Shown: positions 34,216 to 46,742 of the stretch, piece by piece
Layout of the letters: the number at the start of each line of letters is the position of its first letter
How positions within the stretch are numbered: position 1 is the first letter of the stretch
Assembly: GCA_963720375.1 (NCBI GenBank)
Contig: CAVRFM010000015.1
Location: 39,988-103,987 of the forward strand
Reading direction: 5' to 3'
Origin: an uncultured Chloroflexia bacterium
GTDB lineage: Bacteria; Chloroflexota; Dehalococcoidia; UBA2247; RBG-13-53-26
DNA length: 64,000 bases
The notes under the pieces: generated by a model
The model's input: the letters and a program-made list of their open reading frames with translations, nothing else
What the model was told of the DNA's origin: nothing
The model's database searches: none
Translations under genes and position numbers: made by a program

Positions 34216-34921
34216 GCCTCTTCCTCAAAATGATCTCTGCCAGGGCCAAGTCCTCCAGCGTGGTAATCTTAATATTATCATAGGAGCCCATGTAGACTCT
34301 GACCTTATACCCAAGTGCCTCCACCAGAGCGGCATCATCCGTCACTTCCCCTTTAGCCTGCCGATATGCCTCCGTTATTATATCAAAGCGAAACACCTGC
34401 GGGGTCTGTGCTACCCAGAGGTTTTCTCGCCGAGGGGTATTCCGGATTGTCCCCTCGGCTTCAACTATTTTTACGGTTTCCTTTACAGGTACCGCCGCAA
34501 TAGCCGCCCCGGTCTGACGGGCCTCCTCTAGCCCCTGCTCTATCAGATCAGGAGTGATGCAAGGACGCGCCCCATCATGAATCACCACCCAGTGGCAACC
34601 TCCCAGCCCTTTCAGCCCCTCGGCTACCGAATCCTGGCGCCGTTCTCCACCGGCGCATACCTGCGCCACCTTCTGAAACCTTCCTTCCTTTACCACCTCC
34701 CGCCCTCGCTCCAAGCTCACTTCATTCAGCACGATCACCACCTGATCCACTGCACCACATTTCTCAAACACTTCAAGCACATGAGCCAGGACCGATTTGC
34801 CAGCGATGTCAGCAAAAATCTTGTCCACCCCACCCATCCGCCGGCTACTGCCAGCGGCAGCAACAACAGCCCCCACCTTCTCCCGAGATAGCTTCCTCAC
34901 CTTGATAACCGCCTCCTGCAA
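34193..34921 (-). CDS. ispD: 2-C-methyl-D-erythritol 4-phosphate cytidylyltransferase
   Basis: VVAAAGSSRRMG motif. Overlaps ispF in the usual ispDF arrangement. Confidence 0.9.
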   Translation of the reverse strand: MQEAVIKVRKLSREKVGAVVAAAGSSRRMGGVDKIFADIAGKSVLAHVLEVFEKCGAVDQVVIVLNEVSLERGREVVKEGRFQKVAQVCAGGERRQDSVAEGLKGLGGCHWVVIHDGARPCITPDLIEQGLEEARQTGAAIAAVPVKETVKIVEAEGTIRNTPRRENLWVAQTPQVFRFDIITEAYRQAKGEVTDDAALVEALGYKVRVYMGSYDNIKITTLEDLALAEIILRKRHEGWHRL

Positions 34922-34939
34922 ATGCTAGAATGGCCTCGT

Positions 34940-35017
34940 GGTGGGCGTAGCCCAGCGGTTTAAGGCGCCAGGTTGTGGCCCTGGAGATCGAGGGTTCGAA
35001 TCCCTCCGTCCACCCCA
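34940..35017 (+). tRNA. tRNA-His (anticodon GTG) with genome-encoded G-1 and CCA
   Basis: Acceptor stem G-1/GTGGGCG pairs with CGTCCAC-C. Anticodon stem CCAGG/CCTGG with loop TTGTGGC. T-arm GAGGG-TTCGAAT-CCCTC. 3' CCA. Confidence 0.85.
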
Positions 35018-35094
35018 GCGCCTATAGCTCAGCGGATCAGAGCATCGGTCTTCGGAACCGAGGGTCGAGGGTTCGAATCCCTCTAGGCGCGCCA
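35018..35094 (+). tRNA. tRNA-Arg (anticodon TCG), starts at the base after the CCA of tRNA-His
   Basis: Acceptor GCGCCTA/TAGGCGC. D-stem GCTC/GAGC. Anticodon stem TCGGT/ACCGA with loop CTTCGGA. T-arm GAGGG-TTCGAAT-CCCTC. 3' GCCA. Confidence 0.85.
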
Positions 35095-35684
35095 TCTCTA
35101 CGAGCCAAGTTATGCCCATATTCGTGTCCATATTCCCTCACAAAATGCCCCTGATCAATGTCGCCGTCAGCATATTCTGACACTTTTGCTAACAATTTGC
35201 TAACCACCATACACACGGCCGATTCCATGCAGATCTTTTGCACACCCCCCGCAGCTTTGGGCTACCTCTATTATCCTCGCTGTTGCACACAATAGCATCT
35301 GCTTACTATCACTACTAAATAGGCCTGCTATCCATCCACAGAACGAAGAGAAATAGTGCAGTGATACTCATAATGCAGCTAATGTGCAGTGCTGCTGGCA
35401 CTGCCGAGATCATAGGAGTGAAAATGAGGACGTTCCTTAATTACTACTGATCTTTTGATCTTTGCCTGTTGCCTTCTCCAACTCTAGTAGGGTCTTTTAT
35501 CGACGGATTGCCCAAGGGTGTCAGCCCTATCTAGAGCGCTGATTTAGCCAAGGTAGCATTACATGAAGACTTACTGGGCTGTGCCCTGCAAATCAGACCA
35601 TCATTGAACCAACATGCGGCGGCTTGCCTGTGCTGGTGTCCTTTGTACGGAAGAAGAGGTGTGACTCCAAGGTCTAGAAACAAG

Positions 35685-36077
35685 CTATGCGTTTGCTGAG
35701 TGGGGCTTCTTTATTTTCATTACGCTGGCTCTAAAACGAAGATACTTCAAGTACTCTGTCAGTTCCTCAATTTCGTTAGGCGTGGCGGTTGAGAGAATAT
35801 CTGGTTGTGATTGGGGAGGCGTGTGGAAGGATATAATCCAGTCGAACTCGGGTGTGTAGCCAGCTTTCTTCTGCAAAACTTGCACTGGCACGCCGAGTAT
35901 GATTGCGAGTTGAAGTAACTCAGGTTGCCTCGGGCGCCTGTCACCTTTCTCCCATCGGCAGACGGTGCTGAGAGATCTGTGCACCTTCTCACCCAAGTCA
36001 TCCTGTGACATTGGGACTGGCTGTCCAAGCCTAGTCTCACGGAGAAGATCTCCGAATTCTTTCCAGCGGTTAGGCAT
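35685..36077 (-). CDS. HTH_XRE-family transcriptional regulator with a C-terminal extension, divergent from the HD-protein operon
   Basis: MSQDDLGEKVHRSLSTVCRWEKGDRRP...LLQLAIILGVPVQVL helix-turn-helix. Confidence 0.75.
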   Translation of the reverse strand: MPNRWKEFGDLLRETRLGQPVPMSQDDLGEKVHRSLSTVCRWEKGDRRPRQPELLQLAIILGVPVQVLQKKAGYTPEFDWIISFHTPPQSQPDILSTATPNEIEELTEYLKYLRFRASVMKIKKPHSANA

Positions 36078-36132
36078 GATGGTGAGACTCCTTGTTGATA
36101 CTGCGTTGCGATTTTATGTTCTTTTTTACTCT

Positions 36133-36173
36133 TTGTCAATACTTACGGCAACAATATTGACAAAATGTATAAT
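36133..36173 (+). promoter_or_regulatory. Perfect 9-bp inverted repeat TTGTCAATA-N13-TATTGACAA (candidate operator) abutting a TG-TATAAT extended -10 element for the downstream 146-aa / HD operon
   Basis: Inverted-repeat arms at 36133-36141 and 36155-36163. TG at 36166-36167 and TATAAT at 36168-36173. Lies in the divergent intergenic region between the XRE regulator and the operon. Confidence 0.5.
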
Positions 36174-36264
36174 AGTGGTAATCTGTTTGTTGTAAGGGCG
36201 TGGTTCCCCTATAATTGGAGCCCCACCGTCAGTCCGGTGGTCTCAGGAAGAAGGAGGTGGGATC

Positions 36265-36705
36265 TTGCCTAGGACAGTTAGTGCGGATTCCCAAACTGGG
36301 CACCTCACGCTCTATGATAGTGTTGTAGCAGCGATAGGGGGGATCCACGAGGATCAAGCTAGCATGCAAGATCAGAGGATCCCCGTGGAGGATTGCTACC
36401 GTGCCTTCAGCCTTCTTGCATCCGAGTTTCCAGAGAGCTTTCCGGGTGTCTATTTTTCCCGGCGGAGCGGAGTCCCATATTCCAGAGATATCGAGGACGT
36501 GTTGTTCCAGGCAGGGGCATGGAGGCTCATCGAAGATAATAACCCTGACTACCGATATTTCACAGTACCCGCGGCGACCAGAAGACTGATCAAGGAACAG
36601 CTGAGCAAGATTCACAGTGGCAAGACGGGGGATCTTGAGCAAGTCTCCCTACGATTCAAATCTGTGCTAGAGGAACTGAAGCGGGTTGAGTCCCACAGCC
36701 TGTGA
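36265..36705 (+). CDS. Hypothetical protein (146 aa) whose 3' end overlaps the start of the HD-domain gene
   Basis: ORF follows the extended -10 promoter. Overlaps the next ORF by 20 nt in a different frame, suggesting co-transcription. No recognisable motif. Confidence 0.55.
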   Translation: MPRTVSADSQTGHLTLYDSVVAAIGGIHEDQASMQDQRIPVEDCYRAFSLLASEFPESFPGVYFSRRSGVPYSRDIEDVLFQAGAWRLIEDNNPDYRYFTVPAATRRLIKEQLSKIHSGKTGDLEQVSLRFKSVLEELKRVESHSL

Positions 36706-38215
36706 CGCCCTAGCAGAAGAAGTGAACTCCGCGGTTACGGAGATCCTCGGTGACTATAAGCCAAGAAAGATCAGGGACCCCAAGGTCATCCGAGACACCG
36801 CATTTGGCTTTAACCTGTTCCACAAGCATGAGATCAACTTGCTCGATTCGCCGCTTATGCAGCGGTTGCGGCAAGTACGTCAGACGGCTCTAGCCTTCTA
36901 CACCTATCCCTCATCAGTGCATACGCGCTTCGAACATTCCCTTGGTGTCACTGTACTCGCGCAACGCATGCTAGATGCCCTTCGGCAGCGTAAACCCTCC
37001 ACCGCTAGTGATGTCGCCTGCATGGAGGTTCGCCTAGCTGCATTATTGCACGATGTCGGTCATGGTCCATTCTCCCACGCATCTGAAAAGGTCTACAGTT
37101 CCCTCGACCAAATTAAGCGGGCAAAGGAAGAGAACCCCCTGCTAAAAGACAATGAGGCGCACGAAATCCTTTCCTACTTTGTGATCAAGTCATCCAAGTT
37201 CAACGAACTGTGGAGCACCATTCTTGCGAAGTATCAATTGGGTGATAACCCCATCAACCTTGGCGAGATACGCCTTGATCATGTTGCCGAGATGATTCTT
37301 GGTCATCATCCAACGCCCCAACTTAAGTACTTAGCCCAGATTGTGAACGGTCCTCATGATGCGGACAAGCTTGATTACATTACGCGCGATGGTTATTTCA
37401 CTGGTTTACGAACGGCGATCGATCTAGATAGGCTCTTCCTATGTCTGGGGGTCTACGAAAGCGACTCCGGCGAATGCCAATTGTGTGTAGATTTGAGTGG
37501 TGTGACGGCACTTGAGCAGATGCTATTCAACAAGATGCAACTCTATACATCAGTCTATCATCACCATAAGGTTCGCGCGGCTTTCCGTTCGTGTGTTGCC
37601 ATCATTGATGCATGCCGTAACAAGAAGCTGAAGGCGATCGGAGGATCGGAACTCGGTAGTCCGGTTGATTTCATGAGGATCGACGACGGCGCTATTTTGA
37701 GCGCCCGATCGACAGGGGATGCTGACCTCGACAAATGTCTTGCCAATTTGCGAAATCGCATTCTTCCGATGCGTGCTCTGGTACTGTGCTCAGACTCAGT
37801 GGATGATAACGCCTCTCGTTTTCTTCTGGCACGTATGCGGCGGGATACCTCCACAGCCAACGCTCTGCGCGAAGAAATCGCAACCAGAGCTAAAGTCGAC
37901 AACTCGCACATTCTAGTTGATTTTCCGGAAGAGCCACGTTTCATGAGCACAGCGCTCGGCAGTCTTGTTAGGGTCAGTCCTCAAGATGTAGTCCGCCTCA
38001 ACTCGATATTTCCAGTAGGGGGATGGGTGAGAGGTCATGCTGAACACAGATACAGAGTGTATGTATTCAGTCCCTATGAGTCGGAAGAGGCAGTGGCGAA
38101 AGCAGCATACGCCATACTGAGAGAAAAGTACGGGATCAAACCAAACAAAATGGCCTTCTTCCTTGCCAACCATACGCCGACATTCGTGGCATCGCTCCAA
38201 CTGGGGAATTCGTGA
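36686..38215 (+). CDS. HD-domain dNTP triphosphohydrolase-like protein (dGTPase / SAMHD1-type HD phosphohydrolase), 509 aa
   Basis: HTRFEHSLGV...LLHDVGHGPFSH and GPHDADKLDYITRD motifs of the dGTPase-like HD family. N-terminal IRDTAFGF...QRLRQVRQ segment as in this family. Lower-GC context. Confidence 0.8.
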   Translation: MSPTACDALAEEVNSAVTEILGDYKPRKIRDPKVIRDTAFGFNLFHKHEINLLDSPLMQRLRQVRQTALAFYTYPSSVHTRFEHSLGVTVLAQRMLDALRQRKPSTASDVACMEVRLAALLHDVGHGPFSHASEKVYSSLDQIKRAKEENPLLKDNEAHEILSYFVIKSSKFNELWSTILAKYQLGDNPINLGEIRLDHVAEMILGHHPTPQLKYLAQIVNGPHDADKLDYITRDGYFTGLRTAIDLDRLFLCLGVYESDSGECQLCVDLSGVTALEQMLFNKMQLYTSVYHHHKVRAAFRSCVAIIDACRNKKLKAIGGSELGSPVDFMRIDDGAILSARSTGDADLDKCLANLRNRILPMRALVLCSDSVDDNASRFLLARMRRDTSTANALREEIATRAKVDNSHILVDFPEEPRFMSTALGSLVRVSPQDVVRLNSIFPVGGWVRGHAEHRYRVYVFSPYESEEAVAKAAYAILREKYGIKPNKMAFFLANHTPTFVASLQLGNS

Positions 38216-38285
38216 GATCGCAAGCGGTGCCAGTGCGATGGTACTACATTCGCCGCCTAAGTCCGTCAGCTTGCCCGCTATCCCT

Positions 38286-39200
38286 CTAGAGATCAACCTG
38301 GACGGAATTGTTGGTGCCGGCGCGTACCGCCATCATTTGTGAAGCATAACTCTCTGGCACTCGCATTTGATGGCCGAGTGCCGTCTTCTCATCAAAGCGA
38401 TGCACGGCGGCTTGCTGTAAACCCGGTGCAATATGGCTGTACGTGTCGAGCAAAAGTGATGGATATACTGGAATGCCACAGCTTGCCTTAAACGACTTTT
38501 GGGGTGTATTCCCTATTTGCCATATGGATGTAGACATAATCTCCAGGACTTGACGTCCTCTGCTAGCCGTCTGATATCATCCGAGGTGACTTCCAGTTAC
38601 ACGCATCCCGATAGTGCTTTTACACAACAAGTGCCCAATTGGGGCAAGGGCAAGACTACTCATCAAAGGGGGAGGTAGCAAATGGCGAGACAGTGTAAAA
38701 CAGTAGAGATAGTGTACAACGCAAGAGGTCGAGATGTCTTGACATGGTGTATAAAGACAGCTTTTCTCTCCTTGATAACACTGGGGTTCTACTTGCCTGT
38801 TGCCGCAAATAAGCTTGTGAGATATCTGTGCGAGCACACAAAGATACGCATAGACGAGTCAGAGGTCTCAGGAACGTAGTTCGCAGCCTTGGCTGCTAGC
38901 AACCTGCTGAACATGAAATGGCATTGGTTGGTATTTTACAGATCGAGTGTGTCACTACAGAGAGAATCTCATATCAGTCAACAAGACATAAAGTAAACCC
39001 CTTGACCTGGGAAACAGGGACGGTTGTAAACTCATGAAAGGCTTTTCGGGGGCAACCCTTCTAAATATAAATGGAACCAATCCTCAAGAGCAACGCAACA
39101 TAAAGATAAGCCCTTGACCAGCCCAAGGAGGGCAGTTCTATACTTATCAAGCCGCATCCTCGGAGAGAAGGCTTTATTCGGTAATTTCTCGCTTCTTAAC
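38286..39200 (-). pseudogene. Decayed tyrosine recombinase (phage-type integrase) gene remnant
   Basis: Minus-strand frames give ...PKVV*GKLWHSSISIT (LGHSSI box with an in-frame TAA), then a shifted frame gives LLDTYSHIAPGLQQAAVHRFDE (catalytic-Tyr box). Upstream frames are broken. No intact ORF over 90 aa. Confidence 0.5.
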
Positions 39201-39253
39201 TAATTCCGAATCCTCACGTCGCAGAGCAAGACTTTTTAGCTCTAAAGGGGGGT

Positions 39254-40570
39254 ATGAAAACAGCTAAAGAGACTTGGGAGACTGCCAAAGGGGCCCTTCA
39301 GGTTCAGGTTAGCAAAGCCAACTTCGACACTTGGCTAAAGGACACTGTAGGGATCAGTCACCAAGGAAATCAATTTGTAATCGGAACTCCCAGCGCTTTC
39401 GCCAAGGAATGGCTGGAAAAGCGTCTTCATTCTTTGGTAACGAAGGTGCTCATCAGCATTGTAGGGCATGAGATTGAGGTTCAGTTCCAGGTCTGCCCGG
39501 ACCAGGACTCTGTCTGGCAGGGCCAGGACCACTCACAATCGAAGCTGCCATTGCCAGTGGGCAACCCGAGGTATACTTTCGAAAACTTCGTTGTCGGGGG
39601 TTCAAACCGTCTTGCCTACGCTGCTGCATTGGGGATATCTGAGGAGCCAGGGCGGCAGTACAATCCGCTTTTCATCCACGGTGGATCCGGCCTGGGAAAG
39701 ACCCATCTTTCCCACGCGATAGGGAATGAAGCTTCCGAAAACGGATTCAAGGTCGTTTATACTGGCAGCGAGCAATTCACCAATGAGTTCATAAGTTCAA
39801 TCAGGGAGAGAAGGACAGAGGAGTTTCGCAGCAAATTCAGGAACGCTGACATTCTCGTCATAGAGGACATCCAGTTCCTGGTTGGCAAACCCTCGACACA
39901 GGAAACACTGTTTCACACCTTCAATGAACTGCATGACACCAATCGCCAGTTGGTTATCACCAGCGATCGCCCTCCAAAGGCGATGACTACCCTGGAGAGC
40001 AGCTTATGTTCCCGCCTCGAAAGCGGGCTTATTGCCCAAGTTGAAGCACCTGACCTGGAAACACGTTTGGCCATCCTTCACGCAAGGGCCGAGGAACAGC
40101 AGGTTGTCATCGACGAAGCCGTATTCGATTTCATCGCCCAGCGTTGCCAGCGAAATGTCAGGGAACTAGAGGGAGCCCTGACTGCGCTTATCGCCGATGC
40201 AAAGATGTCACAGCAGCGTCCTACACTGGAGCTGGCGCAGGAGGCTCTGCGCGATATGCCTTCGGATAATTTAGGCTCATATGCTACTACCCCGGCATCG
40301 ATATTGAAGGCAGTGGCCGACCACTTCCAGGTGAGTTTAGAATCCCTGAAAGGCCGTAAGAGAGACAATCGATTAGCCATGGCGCGACACATCGCCATCT
40401 ACCTTGTACGAGAGAAGACAAATTGCCCCCTGCAGGATATCGGCAAATTGCTTGGCGGCAGAGACCACTCCACTATTCTCAGGGGCTATCATAGAATCGC
40501 CGGCACAGTTTCTACTGATCCCGCAGTGCAGAGAAACATCCATCAGATTGTGGCTAATCTTCCCACTTAG
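39254..40570 (+). CDS. dnaA: Chromosomal replication initiator protein DnaA
   Basis: Walker A GGSGLGKTHL, AAA+ sensor motifs and the C-terminal DNA-binding HTH (ARHIAIYLVREKT...LGGRDHSTIL). Confidence 0.95.
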   Translation: MKTAKETWETAKGALQVQVSKANFDTWLKDTVGISHQGNQFVIGTPSAFAKEWLEKRLHSLVTKVLISIVGHEIEVQFQVCPDQDSVWQGQDHSQSKLPLPVGNPRYTFENFVVGGSNRLAYAAALGISEEPGRQYNPLFIHGGSGLGKTHLSHAIGNEASENGFKVVYTGSEQFTNEFISSIRERRTEEFRSKFRNADILVIEDIQFLVGKPSTQETLFHTFNELHDTNRQLVITSDRPPKAMTTLESSLCSRLESGLIAQVEAPDLETRLAILHARAEEQQVVIDEAVFDFIAQRCQRNVRELEGALTALIADAKMSQQRPTLELAQEALRDMPSDNLGSYATTPASILKAVADHFQVSLESLKGRKRDNRLAMARHIAIYLVREKTNCPLQDIGKLLGGRDHSTILRGYHRIAGTVSTDPAVQRNIHQIVANLPT

Positions 40571-40767
40571 GTATATTACTATTATTATCTACTATCCAAA
40601 CATCACCCATTCTACTAGACTACTAATACACAATAAGATCCTGTGCATTCAATAAGTGCAGTCAGGCACAGTTGGGCATGTGCTACTAGCCATAACTTTG
40701 AGAGTGGGTGGGAGGGTAGGTATTATGTGCAAATCGTGCAGATGGTCTGTAAAGCAGTAAGACTGGC

Positions 40768-41373: not shown

Positions 41374-41647
41374 GTTGTGTGGGCTGATCAAGTTGAGCGT
41401 TATTCATATACGGATACCCAAGAAACGTTGGTATAGTCCAAGAAGGTGGTGCTAAATGAGATGCCCCAAATGCGGTTATTGCAGCTTTGATGAGGGATGT
41501 AACCATGCCTCTAGCTGATAGAGACTACATGAGAAAAGAACATCCTCCTGCTTGCACCTGCGTTGAGTGCGAAAGGCGAAGGGCAAACAAGGGCAGACGG
41601 CGCACGGGGGAATCTCTCTGGAGTAGAACAATTGGGAGGCTGTTCTC

Positions 41648-42193
41648 TTGGATGCGCTGATGGATGGAGACGTATCAATGTCGCAGGAACGTGATAACGC
41701 TCTCACTAAGGTAGAACTGGCTCGCTACTTCCTCGAACTCATGAAACGTATTGAGAACAGCAGGGCACCTTTGCTACAGGGGAGCACTGCTCTGAGTGTC
41801 CTACAAGAGTACACTTCCTACTTGGATGGATTCTGGGCTGAGTGCTACAGTGCCACACGCTATTTCGATGATGTCAATCCTAAGTGTGCAAAGGCACTTA
41901 AAGACTTTCGAGAAAAAACGCAGGGAGATTTCTACGCATGGGGTACTGGTAAGCGTTCCATATCCGTTCACCACAAACCAGTTGAGCCAAAGAGGGAAGG
42001 CTATATGCCGCCACGAGGAGACAACATTGGTGGGCAACTCTTAGAATACGACCCCCCAAATTGGAACAAGATCAATTCCAAACTGAACGACTATTACTAC
42101 TTCACTGATGATCCTTCGGAGCAGCCGATAACTAGGCAGTGTGAGAGTCACTTAGCAGAACTAGAGAAGTTCATAAAGCAGAATTGTCCATGA
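41648..42193 (+). CDS. Hypothetical protein (181 aa; the start may be the Met at 41678)
   Basis: ORF with no recognisable motif. Lies upstream of, and co-oriented with, the protease gene. Confidence 0.5.
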   Translation: MDALMDGDVSMSQERDNALTKVELARYFLELMKRIENSRAPLLQGSTALSVLQEYTSYLDGFWAECYSATRYFDDVNPKCAKALKDFREKTQGDFYAWGTGKRSISVHHKPVEPKREGYMPPRGDNIGGQLLEYDPPNWNKINSKLNDYYYFTDDPSEQPITRQCESHLAELEKFIKQNCP

Positions 42194-42227
42194 CTGGCAC
42201 CTATGAGGCAAGATAAAATGAATATCA

Positions 42228-43088
42228 TTGATCGGGGATATCAATATGCGCGTACCTGACGAGGTTCGCCAATGCGTCGTGTTTGTGGGGCTTGGAGACG
42301 GCAAGGGAGGAGTGTCATTCAAAGGGACAGCTTTCTTCGTTAGTGTACCTTCCAAGAGCAAACCTGAAGTTAGTTACCTATACTTGGTAACAGCCAAACA
42401 TGTGGCAGCCTTACTGCAAGACAAACCATTCTTAATCCGAGCCAACACGAATGATGGGAAGTCATGCGTAATTGGAGGCGCAAGAGTACATTGGTGGTAT
42501 CATCCCACCGATCCTTTCGTAGATGTAGCCATCATCTCTTGGGTACACCCCGAAAACATGCCCCTTGACTATCTTGAATACAAACACATTCCAACTACAA
42601 TGTTTTTGTCCGATGAAGCTATATATAGTCGTGCTATCGGCACAGGGGATGAGGTATTCATCACTGGGCTTTTTGCACATCTGACAGGCTCATCAAGAAA
42701 CCTGCCAATAGTCCGCATTGGCAACATAGCCATGTTCCCTACAGAGCCAGTACCGACACGTATCGGCAACATCGAAGCTTATTTGATCGAAGCTAGATCA
42801 ATTGGAGGTTTAAGTGGTTCTCCTGCCTTTGTCATCCAAACAGCTCCACCTGAAGTTGGCAAGCTTTACCTTTTGGGATTGATGCATGGTCACTGGGATA
42901 TCCCCCCAGAGGCAAAGAACGACCAACTGGTAATGGACAATGATCACTATAAGCAGGTGAATATGGGCATAGCGATTGTAATTCCAGCTAAGAAGATATT
43001 GGAGGTTATGAACCAAGAAATACTAGACACATGGAGAAGACTAGAGGATCAGAAGATGCAGAAAGAACAAGTACCACCGCCAATGTGA
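42228..43088 (+). CDS. Trypsin-like (chymotrypsin-fold, S1-type) serine protease
   Basis: Catalytic-triad context VTAKHV (His), DVAII (Asp) and GGLSGSP (Ser). Confidence 0.65.
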   Translation: MIGDINMRVPDEVRQCVVFVGLGDGKGGVSFKGTAFFVSVPSKSKPEVSYLYLVTAKHVAALLQDKPFLIRANTNDGKSCVIGGARVHWWYHPTDPFVDVAIISWVHPENMPLDYLEYKHIPTTMFLSDEAIYSRAIGTGDEVFITGLFAHLTGSSRNLPIVRIGNIAMFPTEPVPTRIGNIEAYLIEARSIGGLSGSPAFVIQTAPPEVGKLYLLGLMHGHWDIPPEAKNDQLVMDNDHYKQVNMGIAIVIPAKKILEVMNQEILDTWRRLEDQKMQKEQVPPPM

Positions 43089-43223
43089 AGTATGAGGATT
43101 GAAATATGAATAACGCTGAAGTTGATGAAGCCTCGCTCTGAACACTATAATCTACTGGCTGGTCTAACCGAGAGTATTAGGGAATCGGACTCCATCTAAG
43201 TTAGACTACTCTAGTTAATCATT

Positions 43224-43679
43224 ATGCCTACTCTTGCAGTCAAGTTGGTCCATCCGGCCGCGAAGCCACCTGGGAAGATGACTCCAGGGAGTGCCGGCCT
43301 TGACCTTTACGCAGCGGAAAGTGTGGAGGTTCCGCCTACCCATTGCGAGCCCGATGGACGTGCTGAAGTCGGCAGAGCCCTTGTATCGACAGGAATTGTT
43401 ATAGAGTTGCCTCATGGAACGGTTGGCAGGATAGCATCCCGGTCCGGGCTGTCAGTTAGGGCAAATATAGAGGCGGGAGCCGGGTGGATTGACAGTGACT
43501 ACCGCGGAACGGTTATGGTGGAGTTGAAGAACTTCGGTTCGAATCCCTACCGCATCAACCAGGGAGACCGTATCGCTCAATTAATGGTACTACCGGTTGT
43601 GGACGTTGAAATAAGTGTTGTGACCGATATTAGAGAAACGGCACGAGGGTCATCAGGGTTTGGTTCGACTGGCCACTAG
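43224..43679 (+). CDS. dut: dUTP diphosphatase
   Basis: SAGLDL...RSGL...GWIDSDYRG...dUTPase motifs. Confidence 0.9.
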   Translation: MPTLAVKLVHPAAKPPGKMTPGSAGLDLYAAESVEVPPTHCEPDGRAEVGRALVSTGIVIELPHGTVGRIASRSGLSVRANIEAGAGWIDSDYRGTVMVELKNFGSNPYRINQGDRIAQLMVLPVVDVEISVVTDIRETARGSSGFGSTGH

Positions 43680-43778
43680 GTTTTAGGTATATCGTTCCAA
43701 GTTCTATTCTTGTTGGTGAAGACCGATTGCTGTCTCCCCTGTTTCTGACTGGCCGCTCTGGGTCGAAGCTACTGAAAA

Positions 43779-44483
43779 GTGGGGGAGAACCGAAGGCCGA
43801 GTCTTGAAAGGCTTATGACTATGACTGAGAAGTCTATGAGTGTGACATTGATTGAAGCCAGGGACCTGCCGGAAGCGTGGTTTCTCTGCCTGCGCAGCGT
43901 TCTCGCGGAGGGTTATGAGTACCGTATAGATCGAGGGAGTTTTGAGGGGCAGCGCAGAAAGGAACTTGACTTGGCTGTAGTTCAGATACGCCAACCGGGC
44001 ATACGGCCGCTGGTACCTGACGTACCGCAGGGTGTTCCCCCGCCAACGACTATGGAGTATGTCGAGGCCTACTTGCCCTATCTCATGACTTCCTGCAAAG
44101 AAAAAGGCGAGCAGTACACTTACGGAGAGGACCTTGAATCGCAGATTCCTGAAGTAATCCGGATGTATAAGGAGGGCGGCCACAATACAAATCAGGCGTA
44201 CATGGCGGTGGGCAGCCGGGAATCTATCTATCTGGGGGATCCACAATGCCTGAGAGGCATACACACCAGGATCCGTTATGGTCGCTTCCACTTTGTGGTT
44301 TACTTCAGATCCTGGGACCTATGGGGAGGCTTCCCGTCCAATCTTGCCGCGCTGCAACTTATGAAGGAGTATATGGCGACCGAGATCGGGGTTCCTGACG
44401 GTGAGTTGATTTGCATTAGCAGTGGGATGCATCTGTATGAACATAGTTGGGACTTGGCAAAGCTCGCGGCACGTATAGATTAA
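43779..44483 (+). CDS. Thymidylate synthase ThyA-family protein (short, archaeal-like form)
   Basis: HFVVYFRSWDLWGGFPSNLAALQLM aligns with the ThyA [23 protein letters not shown] segment. DPQCLRGIH aligns with the active-site PCH region. 234 aa. Confidence 0.65.
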   Translation: MGENRRPSLERLMTMTEKSMSVTLIEARDLPEAWFLCLRSVLAEGYEYRIDRGSFEGQRRKELDLAVVQIRQPGIRPLVPDVPQGVPPPTTMEYVEAYLPYLMTSCKEKGEQYTYGEDLESQIPEVIRMYKEGGHNTNQAYMAVGSRESIYLGDPQCLRGIHTRIRYGRFHFVVYFRSWDLWGGFPSNLAALQLMKEYMATEIGVPDGELICISSGMHLYEHSWDLAKLAARID

Positions 44484-44522
44484 GAGTAGTCCGAACATCT
44501 CCAAATTGTAAACCGACACGTA

Positions 44523-44777
44523 ATGGGATATACTAATCTTGATTTTCGTTTGGGAGGTGGTTTTGTGGAGCAATTCGTGCTGCCCAAATGTCAGAAGTGC
44601 AGTAGTGGCGATCTGGTGCCTCTATCTGATTTCGGTAGCCAGGGTGCGCCGATCCATTACAAGGCATGGGTATGTACAAATCCCGATTGTGGGTTCAACT
44701 TGAAGATAAGGAATGGTGACGTTTACATAAACGAGCCGGTTATCAGTGGGGCAATGCACAATTCCCGAGCACGTTAG
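44523..44777 (+). CDS. Small zinc-ribbon protein
   Basis: CQKC...CTNPDC four-cysteine arrangement. Confidence 0.4.
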   Translation: MGYTNLDFRLGGGFVEQFVLPKCQKCSSGDLVPLSDFGSQGAPIHYKAWVCTNPDCGFNLKIRNGDVYINEPVISGAMHNSRAR

Positions 44778-44798
44778 ACTGTATTGATCGGTTAGAAT

Positions 44799-45506
44799 GT
44801 GAGCTGGTGGGCCCAGGTAGGCGAGTTTAAGGGCAAGTTTGTCGATTTAGTCTTTCCACCCCGTTGTGTTGGCTGTGGGAAGGATGGTGCTTTCATCTGC
44901 TCGCCATGTTGCGGGACTATCGCTCGCCTTACGCCTCCGCTCTGTCCCATGTGCAGCAAGCCACTACTTCAGGAGGATTATTGTCCCTCTTGCCGGAGGT
45001 TAAGACTGGAGATCGATGGTATCCGTTCACCCTTCGTTTTTCAGGGCACGGTGCGTCGGGCCATTCATCAGTTCAAGTACAGGAACTTTAAGGCGCTGGC
45101 TCTTCCACTCTCGCAGTTGCTGGCTCAGTATTTGGAAACCAAGCCCCTGCCTGGGGATGTTCTTGTCCCGGTTCCGCTTCATTCCCGTCGGTTGCGTGAG
45201 CGAGGGTATAATCAATCCGGGCTCTTGTCTCGGGAACTCGGGAAACTGCTTGGTCTTCCAGTCGTAGAGGATTCGCTAGTCAGGCTTCGGGACACGCGGG
45301 CTCAAGCCAGGACTTCTGATGCCGAAGAGCGTCGAGGTAATGTACTGGGGGCCTTTAGCTGCCGAGATGAGAGGTTGAAAGGGAGACGGGTACTTCTCGT
45401 TGATGATGTGTGTACTACAGGGGCCACGTTGAATTCCTGTGCCATCGCCTTGAAGGGAGCTGGCGCCAGCTCTGTTTGGGGTTTGGCCTTAGCTAGGGAA
45501 GGATGA
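44799..45506 (+). CDS. ComF-family protein (double zinc ribbon plus phosphoribosyltransferase domain)
   Basis: CVGCG...CSPCC...CPMC...CPSC ribbons and a [14 protein letters not shown] PRTase motif. Confidence 0.8.
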
Positions 45507-46742
45507 GTATGAAAGAGTTGCCGAAGAAAGACCCGGAGATTGCCTCACTAATTAAGAGGGAAGAGGAACGGCAGCAACGCAAGCTGGTGTTCATCGCTGC
45601 TGAGAACCACACCACTCGGGCGGTACTGGAGGCACAGGGCTCTGTCCTTACCAACAAGTACGCCGAAGGCTACCCGGGGCGCCGCTACTACAGTGGTTGC
45701 CAGGAAGTAGATGAGGTGGAGAGAATAGCAGTTCTCAGGGCGAAGGAGCTCTTTCATGCTGAGCATGCCAATGTTCAGTCTCACAGTGGAAGTCAGGCCA
45801 ATGCGGCGGTTTATCTTGCCTTACTCAACCCCGGGGATAAGGTAATGAGCATGAGCCTGGCTCATGGGGGACACCTCACCCACGGAAGTCCGGTCAGTTT
45901 CTCTGGAAAGTTATATAGATTCATTCATTATGAAGTAAACCGGGAAACGGAGCGGCTTGACTATGACGAGGTGGAGCGCCTGGCCAAAGAACATAGACCG
46001 AAGCTGATTGTGGCGGGAGCCAGTGCCTATCCCAGGATTATTGACTTTGAGAGGTTTCATCATATTGCTGAAGAGGTGGGGGCGCAGCTTATGGTCGATA
46101 TGGCTCATATAGCTGGCCTGGTGGCTGCTGGAGTACATCCTTCACCGGTACCCTTGGGCGCAGGTAGTCACTGCGACCACACAAAAGACTCTGCGTGGGC
46201 CCCGGGGTGGCTTTCTTCTTGCTAAGCAGGGGTTGGGCAAAATCCTGGACTCCGCTGTTTTCCCTGGCACGCAGGGTGGCCCCCTGATGCACGTCATTGC
46301 TGCGAAGGCAGTGTGTTTCCATGAGGCAATGCAACCCGAGTTTGTTACTTACCAGCAAAAAATCCTGGAGAATGCCAGGGTTTTGGCTGATGAATTGCAG
46401 AAGTTGGGTTTCCGGATCGTTAGCGGAGGCACAGATAATCATCTCCTCCTTATCGACCTTCGCGGGACAGGGATAACGGGTAGGGTAGCGGAGGAAGCCC
46501 TTGATAGTGTTGGCGTCTCTGCCAACCGGAATGGCATCCCCTTTGATCCTCTTCCACCGCAAACCACGAGCGGATTGAGGCTTGGGACTCCTGCAGTGAC
46601 TACAAGGGGACTCGGTCCGCAGGAGATGAGACAAATAGCCTCGCTAATCCATAGAGTGCTGACCAATCTCGGGGATGAGAAGATAAAACTTGAGGCCTCT
46701 CAGGAAGTGGAGGGGATCACCCGCCGCTTTCCGCTGCCCTGA
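45503..46742 (+). pseudogene. glyA: Serine hydroxymethyltransferase GlyA, split by one frameshift near 46153-46157 (ORFs 45503..46225 and 46233..46742)
   Basis: ORF1 matches SHMT up to HPSPVP and then diverges. The +1 frame continues [22 protein letters not shown]...SAVFPGTQGGPLMH (PLP-lysine region) into ORF2. Confidence 0.85.

What the first reader, a model, noticed from the sequence alone, without database searches (positions are those of the whole stretch)
36265..38215. Candidate nucleotide-depletion anti-phage module: 146-aa unknown protein co-transcribed with a 509-aa HD-domain dNTP-triphosphohydrolase homologue
The 509-aa protein carries the full dGTPase / SAMHD1-like HD signature (HTRFEHSLGV, LLHDVGHGPFSH, GPHDADKLDYITRD). 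Stand-alone dGTPase-like enzymes are an established class of anti-phage defence acting by dNTP depletion. Here the gene is overlapped by an upstream 146-aa ORF with no recognisable family, is controlled by a divergent XRE regulator, and sits in an integrase-associated islet. The two-gene composition and the roughly 200-aa C-terminal extension beyond the HD domain may represent an undescribed variant. The genome would otherwise be expected to lack a housekeeping Dgt.
Basis: partly seen in the sequence, partly recalled or inferred. Interest (0 to 1): 0.8.

Follow-up and report, generated by a model that had tools for sequence, protein, structure and literature searches.

The report
SAMHD1-like dNTPase with small partner islet
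A strain-variable 3-kb islet beside the replication-initiator gene dnaA carries a widely transferred two-gene cassette, a bacterial look-alike of the human antiviral enzyme SAMHD1 plus a small unnamed partner protein, and it is a credible but untested candidate for a new phage-defence system that starves viruses of DNA building blocks.

Summary
ORFs 36265-36705 (146 aa) and 36686-38215 (509 aa) exist, overlap by 20 nt, and face a divergent XRE repressor gene.

The interpretation needs correcting in three places:
- The 509-aa protein is not Dgt-like. It belongs to the SAMHD1/EF1143 clade (HD + HD_assoc_2), and the catalytic and allosteric-site-1 residues are conserved.
- The "C-terminal extension" is the ordinary SAMHD1 C-lobe.
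- The 146-aa protein is not an orphan. It founds an unnamed winged-helix-like family whose closest solved fold is the DarG antitoxin domain.

This small gene sits directly upstream of this HD subfamily in 83-85 of 91 loci across many phyla, and in 0 of 56 loci with distant HD genes.

Two close relatives of the host genome (93-97% nt) lack the islet. One has other cargo in the slot and one has a near-empty site, so the cassette is accessory, not housekeeping. Other evidence fits a defence role:
- clear horizontal transfer between phyla;
- one copy between prophage tail genes and an integrase;
- TIR/SEFIR-fused variants with the same architecture;
- neighbours such as RM systems, pAgo and ABC-3C.

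Best reading: a dNTP-depleting defence or toxin-like module restrained or triggered by the small partner. This is untested. An unexplained bias towards dnaA/dnaN/gyrB neighbourhoods (12 of 47 loci) keeps a replication-linked role open.

The parts
34941..35094 (+). tRNA-His(GTG) and tRNA-Arg(TCG). The tRNA-Arg 3' side is the left flank of the variable slot.
   Evidence: ARAGORN and Rfam tRNA. The backbone is collinear with relatives L249 and L250 up to here.
35245..38472 (.). Accessory islet (approximate limits) that is present or absent among close relatives. It holds the XRE gene, the 146-aa gene, the HD gene and most of the integrase remnant.
   Evidence: In L250/L251 (95-97% nt identical backbone) tRNA-Arg is joined to window ~38473 onwards with only about 130 nt between. 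L249 (93-94% nt) carries PadR-HAAS-DUF4097 in place of window 35394-38802. No att-like direct repeat was found.
35685..36077 (-). 130-aa XRE-family HTH regulator, divergently transcribed.
   Evidence: Pfam HTH_31 6.7e-8 and HTH_3 6.3e-7. Full-length homologues sit in the same divergent position in L204 and L238. L247 has an HTH_3 gene of 130 aa in that position.
36111..36175 (.). Divergent control region: an inverted repeat (candidate operator, core TTTGTCAATA / TATTGACAAA) overlapping a TTGACA-17-TAAAAT promoter-like site for the XRE gene. A TATAAT at 36168-36173 faces the operon.
   Evidence: the repeat finder I1, promoter scan 11/12 and the sequence itself. Function is inferred.
36265..36705 (+). 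146-aa partner protein: a winged-helix-like core plus a long C-terminal helix. It belongs to an unnamed family with the conserved motif PYSxxLEDxLFxLG...NP.
36686..38215 (+). 509-aa SAMHD1/EF1143-clade HD phosphohydrolase, a predicted allosterically regulated dNTP triphosphohydrolase. It is the predicted effector.
   Evidence: Pfam HD + HD_assoc_2. PDB sequence hits to 2hek, 2q14, EF1143 and SAMHD1, E 1e-31 to 1e-20. AF2 pLDDT 93. Foldseek TM 0.64-0.76 to SAMHD1 cores over the full length. Invariant catalytic and allosteric-site-1 columns.
38286..38537 (-). 83-aa remnant resembling the C-terminal end of a tyrosine recombinase (decayed integrase), at the right edge of the islet.
   Evidence: ORF translation ...LLDTYSHIAPGLQQAAVHRFDE. 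No Pfam hit, so the identification rests on my reading of the motif. Only its last ~65 nt are shared with L250.
39254..40570 (+). dnaA, the right-hand core flank. The islet lies about 0.7 kb upstream, at the GC-skew minimum.
   Evidence: The same protein is named DnaA in cluster member MCX5991371.1. Pfam DnaA domains are recorded for the >=90%-identical cluster members encoded in L249 and L250. Cumulative GC skew is lowest at 35-38 kb.

Best explanation
The islet carries a mobile three-gene cassette: an XRE regulator, a small partner protein and a SAMHD1-like HD enzyme. The enzyme is the effector, a dNTP triphosphohydrolase that can collapse the dNTP pool and so stop phage (and host) DNA synthesis.

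The small winged-helix-like protein is made first, from an overlapping and probably translationally coupled gene. I propose that it binds the HD enzyme and holds it inactive, or couples it to an infection cue, in the way an antitoxin or CloB restrains its effector. The XRE protein represses the divergent promoters through the inverted repeat.

Shown here:
- the gene pair is conserved and tightly linked;
- the enzyme's fold and its catalytic and allosteric residues are conserved;
- the cassette is accessory and horizontally transferred.

Inferred, not shown:
- dNTPase activity;
- physical interaction between the two proteins;
- the direction of regulation;
- any anti-phage phenotype.
For: Effector:
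- Pfam HD + HD_assoc_2.
- Alignment to SAMHD1 and EF1143 conserves R81/H84 (SAMHD1 R164/H167), H122-D123 (H206-D207), H126, H131, D227 (D311), K228, Y231 and D235. It also conserves the guanine-specific allosteric-site-1 triad D54/Q59/R62 (D137/Q142/R145). These columns are invariant in 43 subfamily members, except K228, which is nearly invariant (at least 90%).
- The full-length fold match to SAMHD1 has TM 0.64-0.76.

Obligate pairing:
- The small gene is directly upstream on the same strand in 83 of 91 loci, or 85 with a refined HMM. It is in 0 of 56 loci with distant HD genes.
- The median stop-to-start distance is +5 nt.

Accessory and mobile:
- The islet is absent from two relatives that share a 93-97% nt identical backbone.
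- L013 (Terriglobia) vs L011 (Gemmatimonadales): HD 60% and small 51% identical, but DnaA 39% and DnaN 40%.
- L006 vs L176: HD 77% but GyrB 65%, NadD 55% and DnaA 45%.
- One copy lies between prophage tail genes and an integrase (L086).

Immune flavour:
- There are TIR/SEFIR-HD fusions in the same subfamily. One of them (L247) has the same XRE | small | HD layout.
- Mapped neighbours include type I RM, type III RM + ABC-3C, pAgo, a GajB-like helicase and a PtuA-like ATPase. Further PADLOC hits (Drt4, PD-T4-6, HerA, MADS) occur among 202 flanking proteins.

Precedent: in Clover the dNTPase CloA is toxic alone and is restrained by its partner CloB (PMC12265719).
Against: - No experiment exists and no PADLOC model covers the pair.
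- Only about 10 of roughly 78 loci have a recognisable defence gene within two genes. Most neighbours are ordinary metabolic or core genes.
- 12 of 47 well-flanked loci lie beside dnaA/dnaN/gyrB, which could point to a replication-linked role.
- Only one of the 80 retained matches (189 confirmed relatives found) in 2.9 million viral contigs carries the pair.
- The DarG resemblance is modest (TM 0.49, 11-16% identity).
- The partner family's pI ranges from 4.7 to 9.9, so no common surface chemistry, such as DNA mimicry, can be claimed.
- The HD gene next to the closest homologue of the partner is disrupted by an insertion. This shows the module can decay.
Confidence: 0.5

Rival explanations
1. 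A replication-linked dNTP-homeostasis module. The pair trims dNTP pools in step with replication initiation, and the small protein acts as a regulatory subunit. Under this view its repeated position beside dnaA/dnaN/gyrB reflects function or dosage control, not defence.
For: - 12 of 47 loci with at least 6 kb of flank have dnaA, dnaN or gyrB within 8 kb, at five or more different junction types and in three phyla. None of the 56 pair-less HD loci do (many of those are archaeal and lack dnaA/dnaN, so this control is imperfect).
- The window copy lies 0.7 kb from dnaA at the GC-skew minimum.
- SAMHD1 and EF1143 relatives are known dNTP-pool regulators (established knowledge).
- Most neighbours are housekeeping genes.
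Against: - The islet is missing from close relatives with 93-97% identical backbones.
- It is transferred between phyla.
- It occurs in a prophage, next to RM, pAgo and ABC-3C genes, and fused to TIR/SEFIR domains.
- The same origin-flanking slots in this lineage hold unrelated cargo, so they look like general insertion hot spots.
Confidence: 0.2
2. A plain type II toxin-antitoxin or addiction module. The HD enzyme is the toxin and the small upstream protein is a labile antitoxin. The module stabilises the mobile islet and has no dedicated anti-phage role.
For: - Antitoxin-first order with overlapping genes.
- Near-obligate pairing.
- The partner's closest fold is an antitoxin domain.
- Association with XRE genes, integrases and mobile elements.
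- dNTPase toxicity has a precedent (PMC12265719).
Against: - A separate XRE regulator is present, whereas classical type II antitoxins autoregulate.
- The window member of the partner family is acidic in its 'recognition' helix (and the sequence), so DNA binding is doubtful.
- Many toxin-antitoxin modules turn out to be defence systems, so this rival overlaps with the best explanation.
Confidence: 0.15
3. The HD enzyme acts on something other than dNTPs, for example NTPs, signalling nucleotides or nucleic acid. The small protein would then be a substrate adaptor or a DNA-binding factor.
For: - HD-superfamily enzymes have diverse substrates, and nuclease activity and nucleic-acid binding have been reported for SAMHD1 (established knowledge; PDB entries of SAMHD1 with oligonucleotides appear).
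- TIR fusions could place it in a nucleotide-signal pathway.
- The partner has a winged-helix fold.
Against: - All SAMHD1 dNTPase catalytic residues and the allosteric-site-1 residues are invariant.
- The closest solved relatives with known activity are dNTPases.
Confidence: 0.1

Closest known systems
SAMHD1 / EF1143 / TT1383-type dNTP triphosphohydrolases (HD + HD_assoc_2)
   Same: Same fold over the whole length (TM 0.64-0.76). Same H..HD..D metal site and auxiliary catalytic residues. Same guanine-specific allosteric-site-1 residues. Same Pfam architecture.
   Different: About 20% identity to SAMHD1. No SAM domain. It is encoded with an obligate small upstream partner on a mobile islet, which is not described for EF1143, TT1383 or SAMHD1. 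Some subfamily members carry N-terminal TIR/SEFIR domains.
Stand-alone anti-phage dGTPase (Tal et al. 2022; PADLOC dGTPase, NCBIfam NF041026)
   Same: An HD-superfamily nucleotide-depleting effector. The proposed outcome, dNTP starvation of the phage, is the same.
   Different: A different clade (Dgt-like). The window protein scores far below the family cut-offs. That system has one gene; this one has two, or three with the XRE regulator.
Clover (CloA dGTPase + CloB nucleotidyltransferase; PMC12265719)
   Same: A two-gene dNTPase system in which the accessory protein restrains an otherwise toxic effector. This is the best functional analogy.
   Different: CloA is Dgt-like (~33% to SpdGTPase), not SAMHD1-like. 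CloB is an enzyme that makes the nucleotide p3diT and is cloned downstream of CloA. Here the partner is a 146-aa non-enzymatic winged-helix-like protein encoded upstream.
DarG C-terminal (DarT-binding) antitoxin domain, PDB 7yk3
   Different: Only 11-16% identity and TM about 0.49. DarG also has a macrodomain. The toxin partner (DarT, an ADP-ribosyltransferase) is unrelated to HD enzymes. Homology is not established.

Membership tests
SAMHD1/EF1143-clade dNTP triphosphohydrolase | HD-domain metal site H...HD...D | tested here: met
   H84, H122-D123 and D227 align with SAMHD1 H167, H206-D207 and D311 and are invariant in A3. Pfam HD 3.5e-11.
SAMHD1/EF1143-clade dNTP triphosphohydrolase | Auxiliary catalytic and substrate residues (SAMHD1 R164, H210, H215, K312, Y315, D319) | tested here: met
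   R81, H126, H131, K228, Y231 and D235 align and are invariant or nearly invariant in 43 members.
SAMHD1/EF1143-clade dNTP triphosphohydrolase | C-terminal lobe (Pfam HD_assoc_2) completing the SAMHD1 catalytic-core fold | tested here: met
   HD_assoc_2 2.6e-19 over residues 245-479. The AF2 model (pLDDT 93) superposes on SAMHD1 109-626 over 490-525 columns.
SAMHD1/EF1143-clade dNTP triphosphohydrolase | Guanine-nucleotide allosteric site 1 (SAMHD1 D137, Q142, R145) | tested here: met
   D54, Q59 and R62 align with them and are invariant in the subfamily. Actual nucleotide activation was not tested.
SAMHD1/EF1143-clade dNTP triphosphohydrolase | dNTP -> deoxynucleoside + triphosphate activity | not testable with these tools
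   Needs an enzyme assay.
Anti-phage dGTPase (Dgt-like; PADLOC dGTPase / NCBIfam NF041026) | Scores above the family HMM cut-off over the full length | tested here: not met
   PADLOC dGTPase 30.9 bits covering residues 55-136 only. NF041026 22.7 bits against a cut-off of 400, and TIGR01353 31.5 against 152.
Clover (CloA + CloB) | Partner is a Pol-beta-type nucleotidyltransferase with the [D/E]h[D/E] motif | tested here: not met
   The partner is a 146-aa winged-helix-like protein. It has no Pfam, NCBIfam or PADLOC hit and no NTase fold.
Type II toxin-antitoxin module | Small gene upstream of, and overlapping or abutting, the toxin gene, with the pairing conserved | tested here: met
   20-nt overlap in the window. 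Adjacent on the same strand in 83-85 of 91 loci, median gap +5 nt.
Type II toxin-antitoxin module | The toxin is growth-inhibitory and the partner neutralises it by binding | not testable with these tools
   Only analogy is available: the DarG-like fold and CloA toxicity.
Anti-phage defence system (operational definition) | Accessory, horizontally transferred, enriched near known defence genes or on mobile elements | tested here: inconclusive
   Accessory status and horizontal transfer are clearly met. One copy is in a prophage. Defence neighbours are present in about 10 of roughly 78 loci, but no background rate was computed and most neighbours are ordinary genes.
Housekeeping Dgt at a syntenic core position | Present at the same position in closely related genomes | tested here: not met
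   L249 (GCA_026389585.1) and L250/L251 share the flanks at 93-97% nt but lack the islet.

The most novel reading that the evidence does not exclude
A widespread, so far undescribed prokaryotic immune module in which a genuine SAMHD1-clade dNTPase, with the allosteric site conserved and sometimes fused to TIR/SEFIR, is held in check by a dedicated DarG-CTD-like partner protein and moves between phyla. It would be the closest bacterial counterpart of human SAMHD1 immunity. Its repeated capture beside dnaA/dnaN/gyrB would hint at a link between the replication origin and nucleotide-depletion defence.
Probability: 0.3. Interest if true: 0.8.

Novelty: new variant of a known kind. Interest (0 to 1): 0.62.

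Why it matters
Nucleotide depletion is an immune strategy shared by humans (SAMHD1) and bacteria. The bacterial dNTPase defences characterised so far (the stand-alone dGTPase and Clover CloA) are Dgt-like.

A mobile, partner-regulated cassette built on a true SAMHD1-clade enzyme, with TIR/SEFIR-fused relatives, would give three things:
- a much closer prokaryotic counterpart of SAMHD1;
- a new protein-based way, rather than a nucleotide-based one, of restraining a toxic dNTPase;
- a named function for a small protein family of about 100 or more clusters that currently has no annotation.

The origin-proximal bias, if real, raises the testable question of whether dNTP-depleting systems profit from sitting at oriC.

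Tried and rejected
- Dgt/dGTPase membership is rejected. The PADLOC and NCBIfam scores are far below cut-off.
- The 'novel C-terminal extension' is rejected. It is HD_assoc_2, the SAMHD1 C-lobe.
- The 'orphan 146-aa ORF' is rejected. The word-based search found one homologue, but the exhaustive HMM search found 95.
- No Pfam, NCBIfam, PADLOC or PDB-sequence family matches the small protein. The only sequence hint is a weak match to the Hel308 winged-helix domain (E 0.1).
- The idea that the partner is a uniformly acidic DNA mimic, like the DarG C-terminal domain, is rejected for the family as a whole. Its pI ranges from 4.7 to 9.9.
- I searched for att-type direct repeats of the tRNA-Arg 3' end around the islet and found none.
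- I looked for a DnaA-box cluster near the islet. Counts were not above chance.
- Rfam finds only the two tRNAs.
- The search for related loci with the small-protein alignment failed because no stretch was conserved enough.
- The afdb50 fold library was unavailable.
- L246 (HD 98% identical) seemed to show a decayed partner gene. Its abrupt switch from 100% identity to about 75% identity with many indels looks like an assembly artefact, so I did not use it.
- Literature searches for a SAMHD1-like dNTPase with a winged-helix partner found nothing beyond Clover and general reviews. The library is incomplete.
Full report
**1. Observation**

The window holds a 146-aa ORF at 36265-36705 (+) and a 509-aa ORF at 36686-38215 (+), overlapping by 20 nt. 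The first ORF starts with TTG, 5 nt after an AGGAGGTG ribosome-binding site. All three quoted HD motifs are present.

A 130-aa XRE-type HTH gene (35685-36077, -) is divergent. The 187-bp intergenic region holds a 21-nt inverted repeat with a perfect 10-bp core. It also holds an 11/12 sigma-70-like promoter facing the XRE gene.

tRNA-His and tRNA-Arg end at 35094. An 83-aa ORF at 38286-38537 (-) reads like the C-terminal end of a tyrosine recombinase; this is my reading, as Pfam gave no hit. dnaA starts at 39254, and the cumulative GC skew bottoms out at 35-38 kb, so the islet sits at the replication origin region.

**2. The 509-aa protein**

Pfam gives HD (3.5e-11) plus HD_assoc_2 (2.6e-19, residues 245-479). 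Its best solved relatives by sequence are Aquifex 2hek, Bacteroides 2q14, E. faecalis EF1143, a fungal SAMHD1 (9mr6; PMC12042053) and human SAMHD1, with E 1e-31 to 1e-20.

Dgt-type models score only marginally:
- PADLOC dGTPase: 31 bits over about 80 residues.
- NCBIfam anti-phage dGTPase: 22.7 bits against a cut-off of 400.

An AlphaFold model built on 43 subfamily sequences (pLDDT 93) superposes on the SAMHD1 catalytic core over 490-525 columns, with TM 0.64-0.76. The "C-terminal extension" is therefore simply the SAMHD1 C-lobe.

The alignment to SAMHD1, read against the invariant columns of the subfamily, shows conservation of:
- the metal site (H84, H122-D123, D227);
- the auxiliary residues (R81, H126, H131, K228, Y231, D235);
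- the guanine-specific allosteric-site-1 triad (D54, Q59, R62 = SAMHD1 D137, Q142, R145).

I conclude it is a SAMHD1/EF1143-clade enzyme, very probably a nucleotide-activated dNTP triphosphohydrolase. It is not a Dgt.

**3. The 146-aa protein**

The word-based search found a single homologue: a Syntrophomonadaceae MAG protein, 54% identical, also just upstream of an HD gene. An exhaustive profile search found 95 cluster representatives, almost all 110-160 aa. They share the motif PYSxxLEDxLFxLG...NP.

None of 57 members matches a Pfam family. The only PDB sequence hint is a weak match to the Hel308 winged-helix domain.

The family's pI ranges from 4.7 to 9.9 (window member 5.55), so no general DNA-mimic or DNA-binding claim can be made.

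**4. The pair is a conserved unit**

I pulled loci with an alignment of the HD subfamily from species-representative genomes, metagenomes and viral contigs. I then searched their six-frame ORFs with HMMs of both families.

- Among 100 de-duplicated loci of the near subfamily, 91 have room upstream. In 83 of these the small gene is immediately upstream on the same strand.
- A refined HMM adds two more.
- Four of the remaining six still have the small gene nearby in another orientation or further away (L192, L194, L213, L225); L195 and L026 have no detectable copy.
- None of the 56 more distant, mostly archaeal HD loci has the small gene.
- The projected HD start lies a median of 5 nt after the small gene's stop, with an interquartile range of -4 to +35. 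This indicates an operon with probable translational coupling.

Hosts include Dehalococcoidia, other Chloroflexota, Terriglobia/Acidobacteriota, Gemmatimonadales, Geobacteraceae, other Proteobacteria, Clostridia and a Thermoplasmata archaeon.

A divergent XRE gene homologous to the window's over nearly its full length recurs in L204 and L238. HTH_3/HTH_31 proteins are among the commonest flanking families.

**5. Accessory or housekeeping?**

The window's DnaA belongs to a 90%-identity cluster with 19 members, and two of them gave long contigs.

| Relative | Backbone identity | What fills the tRNA-Arg to dnaA slot |
|---|---|---|
| L249 (GCA_026389585.1, Chloroflexota) | 93-94% nt, collinear through cysS-ispF-ispD-tRNAs and dnaA-nadD-dut | A PadR-HAAS/sensor-DUF4097 operon replaces window 35394-38802 |
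| L250/L251 | 95-97% nt | tRNA-Arg is joined to window ~38473 onwards by about 130 nt: a near-empty site |

The islet (~35245-38472) is therefore strain-variable cargo in a hot spot. I found no att repeat, and the integrase is only a remnant, so the insertion is old or decayed.

Identity comparisons show horizontal transfer:

| Pair of loci | HD | Small | Core proteins |
|---|---|---|---|
| L013 (Terriglobia) vs L011 (Gemmatimonadales) | 60% | 51% | DnaA 39%, DnaN 40% |
| L006 vs L176 (both Dehalococcoidia) | 77% | 75% | GyrB 65%, NadD 55%, DnaA 45% |
| L013 vs L020 (both Terriglobia) | 28% | - | GyrB 62% |

The last row indicates independent acquisitions within one class.

**6. Immune flavour**

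- Four of the top 120 HD homologues carry N-terminal TIR or SEFIR domains. The one I examined (L247) has the same layout, XRE(-) | small (E 2.5e-18) | TIR-HD.
- The only viral contig with the pair (L086) has it between tail/tail-fibre genes and an integrase. That is the usual position of prophage-borne defence cargo.
- Mapped neighbours include HsdM (L010), ABC-3C components plus a type III RM system (L019), a type I RM system (L239), a GajB-like helicase (L219), pAgo (L190) and a PtuA-like ATPase (L018).
- Among 202 flanking proteins, PADLOC also reports strong hits to Drt4, PD-T4-6, HerA and MADS components that I did not map to loci.
- The GajB-like hit could be an ordinary UvrD/PcrA helicase.
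- Set against this, most neighbours are ordinary genes, and I could not compute a background rate.

**7. Unexplained: origin bias**

Of the 47 loci with at least 6 kb of flank, 12 have dnaA, dnaN or gyrB within 8 kb. There are at least five different junction types:
- nadD | pair | gyrB in several Dehalococcoidia;
- pair | gyrB-dnaN-dnaA and dnaA-dnaN | pair in Terriglobia;
- pair | mnmE-yidC...dnaA in a Gemmatimonadales MAG;
- tRNA-Arg | islet | dnaA in the window.

In the window's lineage both sides of dnaA-nadD are variable slots. The second slot (41397-43118) is absent from L249 and differently filled in L250. Origin-flanking hot spots may explain part of the bias. A dosage or functional link with replication is not excluded, and I keep it as the main rival explanation.

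**8. Mechanism**

Most likely (confidence about 0.5), the HD enzyme is a dNTP-depleting effector. The small protein, made first from the overlapping gene, binds it and restrains it or couples it to an infection cue. XRE represses the divergent promoters.

The nearest functional precedent is Clover, where the dNTPase CloA is toxic alone and its partner CloB restrains it (PMC12265719). In Clover the restraint works through a synthesised nucleotide and the enzyme is Dgt-like. Here the partner has no enzymatic signature. Enzyme activity, protein interaction, direction of control and phage phenotype are all inferred.

**9. Novelty and verdict**

The kind of system (nucleotide-depletion defence, two-component dNTPase systems) is known. 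The composition is not covered by PADLOC v2, Pfam or NCBIfam, or by the literature I could search. That composition is a SAMHD1-clade enzyme, an unnamed DarG-CTD-like partner and often an XRE gene.

I rate it a new variant of a known kind. It is a well-supported candidate worth an experiment, and the origin bias is an extra open question.

Noticed in passing
window 41397-43118 (ORFs 41648-42193 and 42228-43088): There is a second variable slot directly after nadD. It holds a 181-aa unknown protein plus a 286-aa protein that matches the PADLOC candidate PDC-S45 (E 1e-14). The slot is absent from close relative L249. In L250 the 181-aa homologue is followed by a ClpP-like protease instead. This 'small protein + swappable protease' pair may be another defence candidate.
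   Followed up: partly
L006, L011-L014, L020, L028, L029, L175, L176, L200 and window 34900-40600: The small+HD pair lies within 8 kb of dnaA, dnaN or gyrB in 12 of 47 well-flanked loci. The junctions differ and the hosts span three phyla, despite clear horizontal transfer. This is unexplained.
   Followed up: partly
L001 5640-5900 (also L003): In the Syntrophomonadaceae MAG that holds the only close homologue of the 146-aa protein, the HD gene is interrupted after ...HHQKVRAA by about 85 unrelated codons with three in-frame stops. It then resumes in the same frame. This looks like an inserted element or pseudogene, and it is seen in more than one independent assembly (L001 and L003).
   Followed up: partly
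L246 1-1800 vs window 35130-36900: An ENA contig is 100% identical to the window over 36900-38100. Upstream it is only 72-85% identical with many indels, which break the XRE and small genes. This is probably a noisy or chimeric assembly, so I did not use it as evidence.
   Followed up: partly
L249 4631-7548: In a close relative, the tRNA-Arg | dnaA slot holds a PadR - HAAS/sensor - DUF4097 operon instead of the islet. This shows the slot is a general cargo hot spot.
   Followed up: no
L247 2620-6233; proteins P0088, P0108, P0109, P0120: Some members of the same HD subfamily carry N-terminal TIR or SEFIR domains. In L247 the fused version keeps both the small partner and the divergent XRE gene.
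   Followed up: partly
window 38682-38879: A 65-aa ORF matches only the C-terminal end of DUF898 (E 1.5e-6). It is a gene fragment between the islet and dnaA and is shared with L250. It may be debris from earlier cargo in this slot.
   Followed up: no
window 43224-46225: A core cluster of nucleotide-metabolism genes follows the origin: dUTPase, a thymidylate-synthase-like gene, a ComF-type phosphoribosyltransferase and then SHMT. It is conserved in L249 and L250. It is ordinary, but notable next to a dNTPase islet.
   Followed up: no
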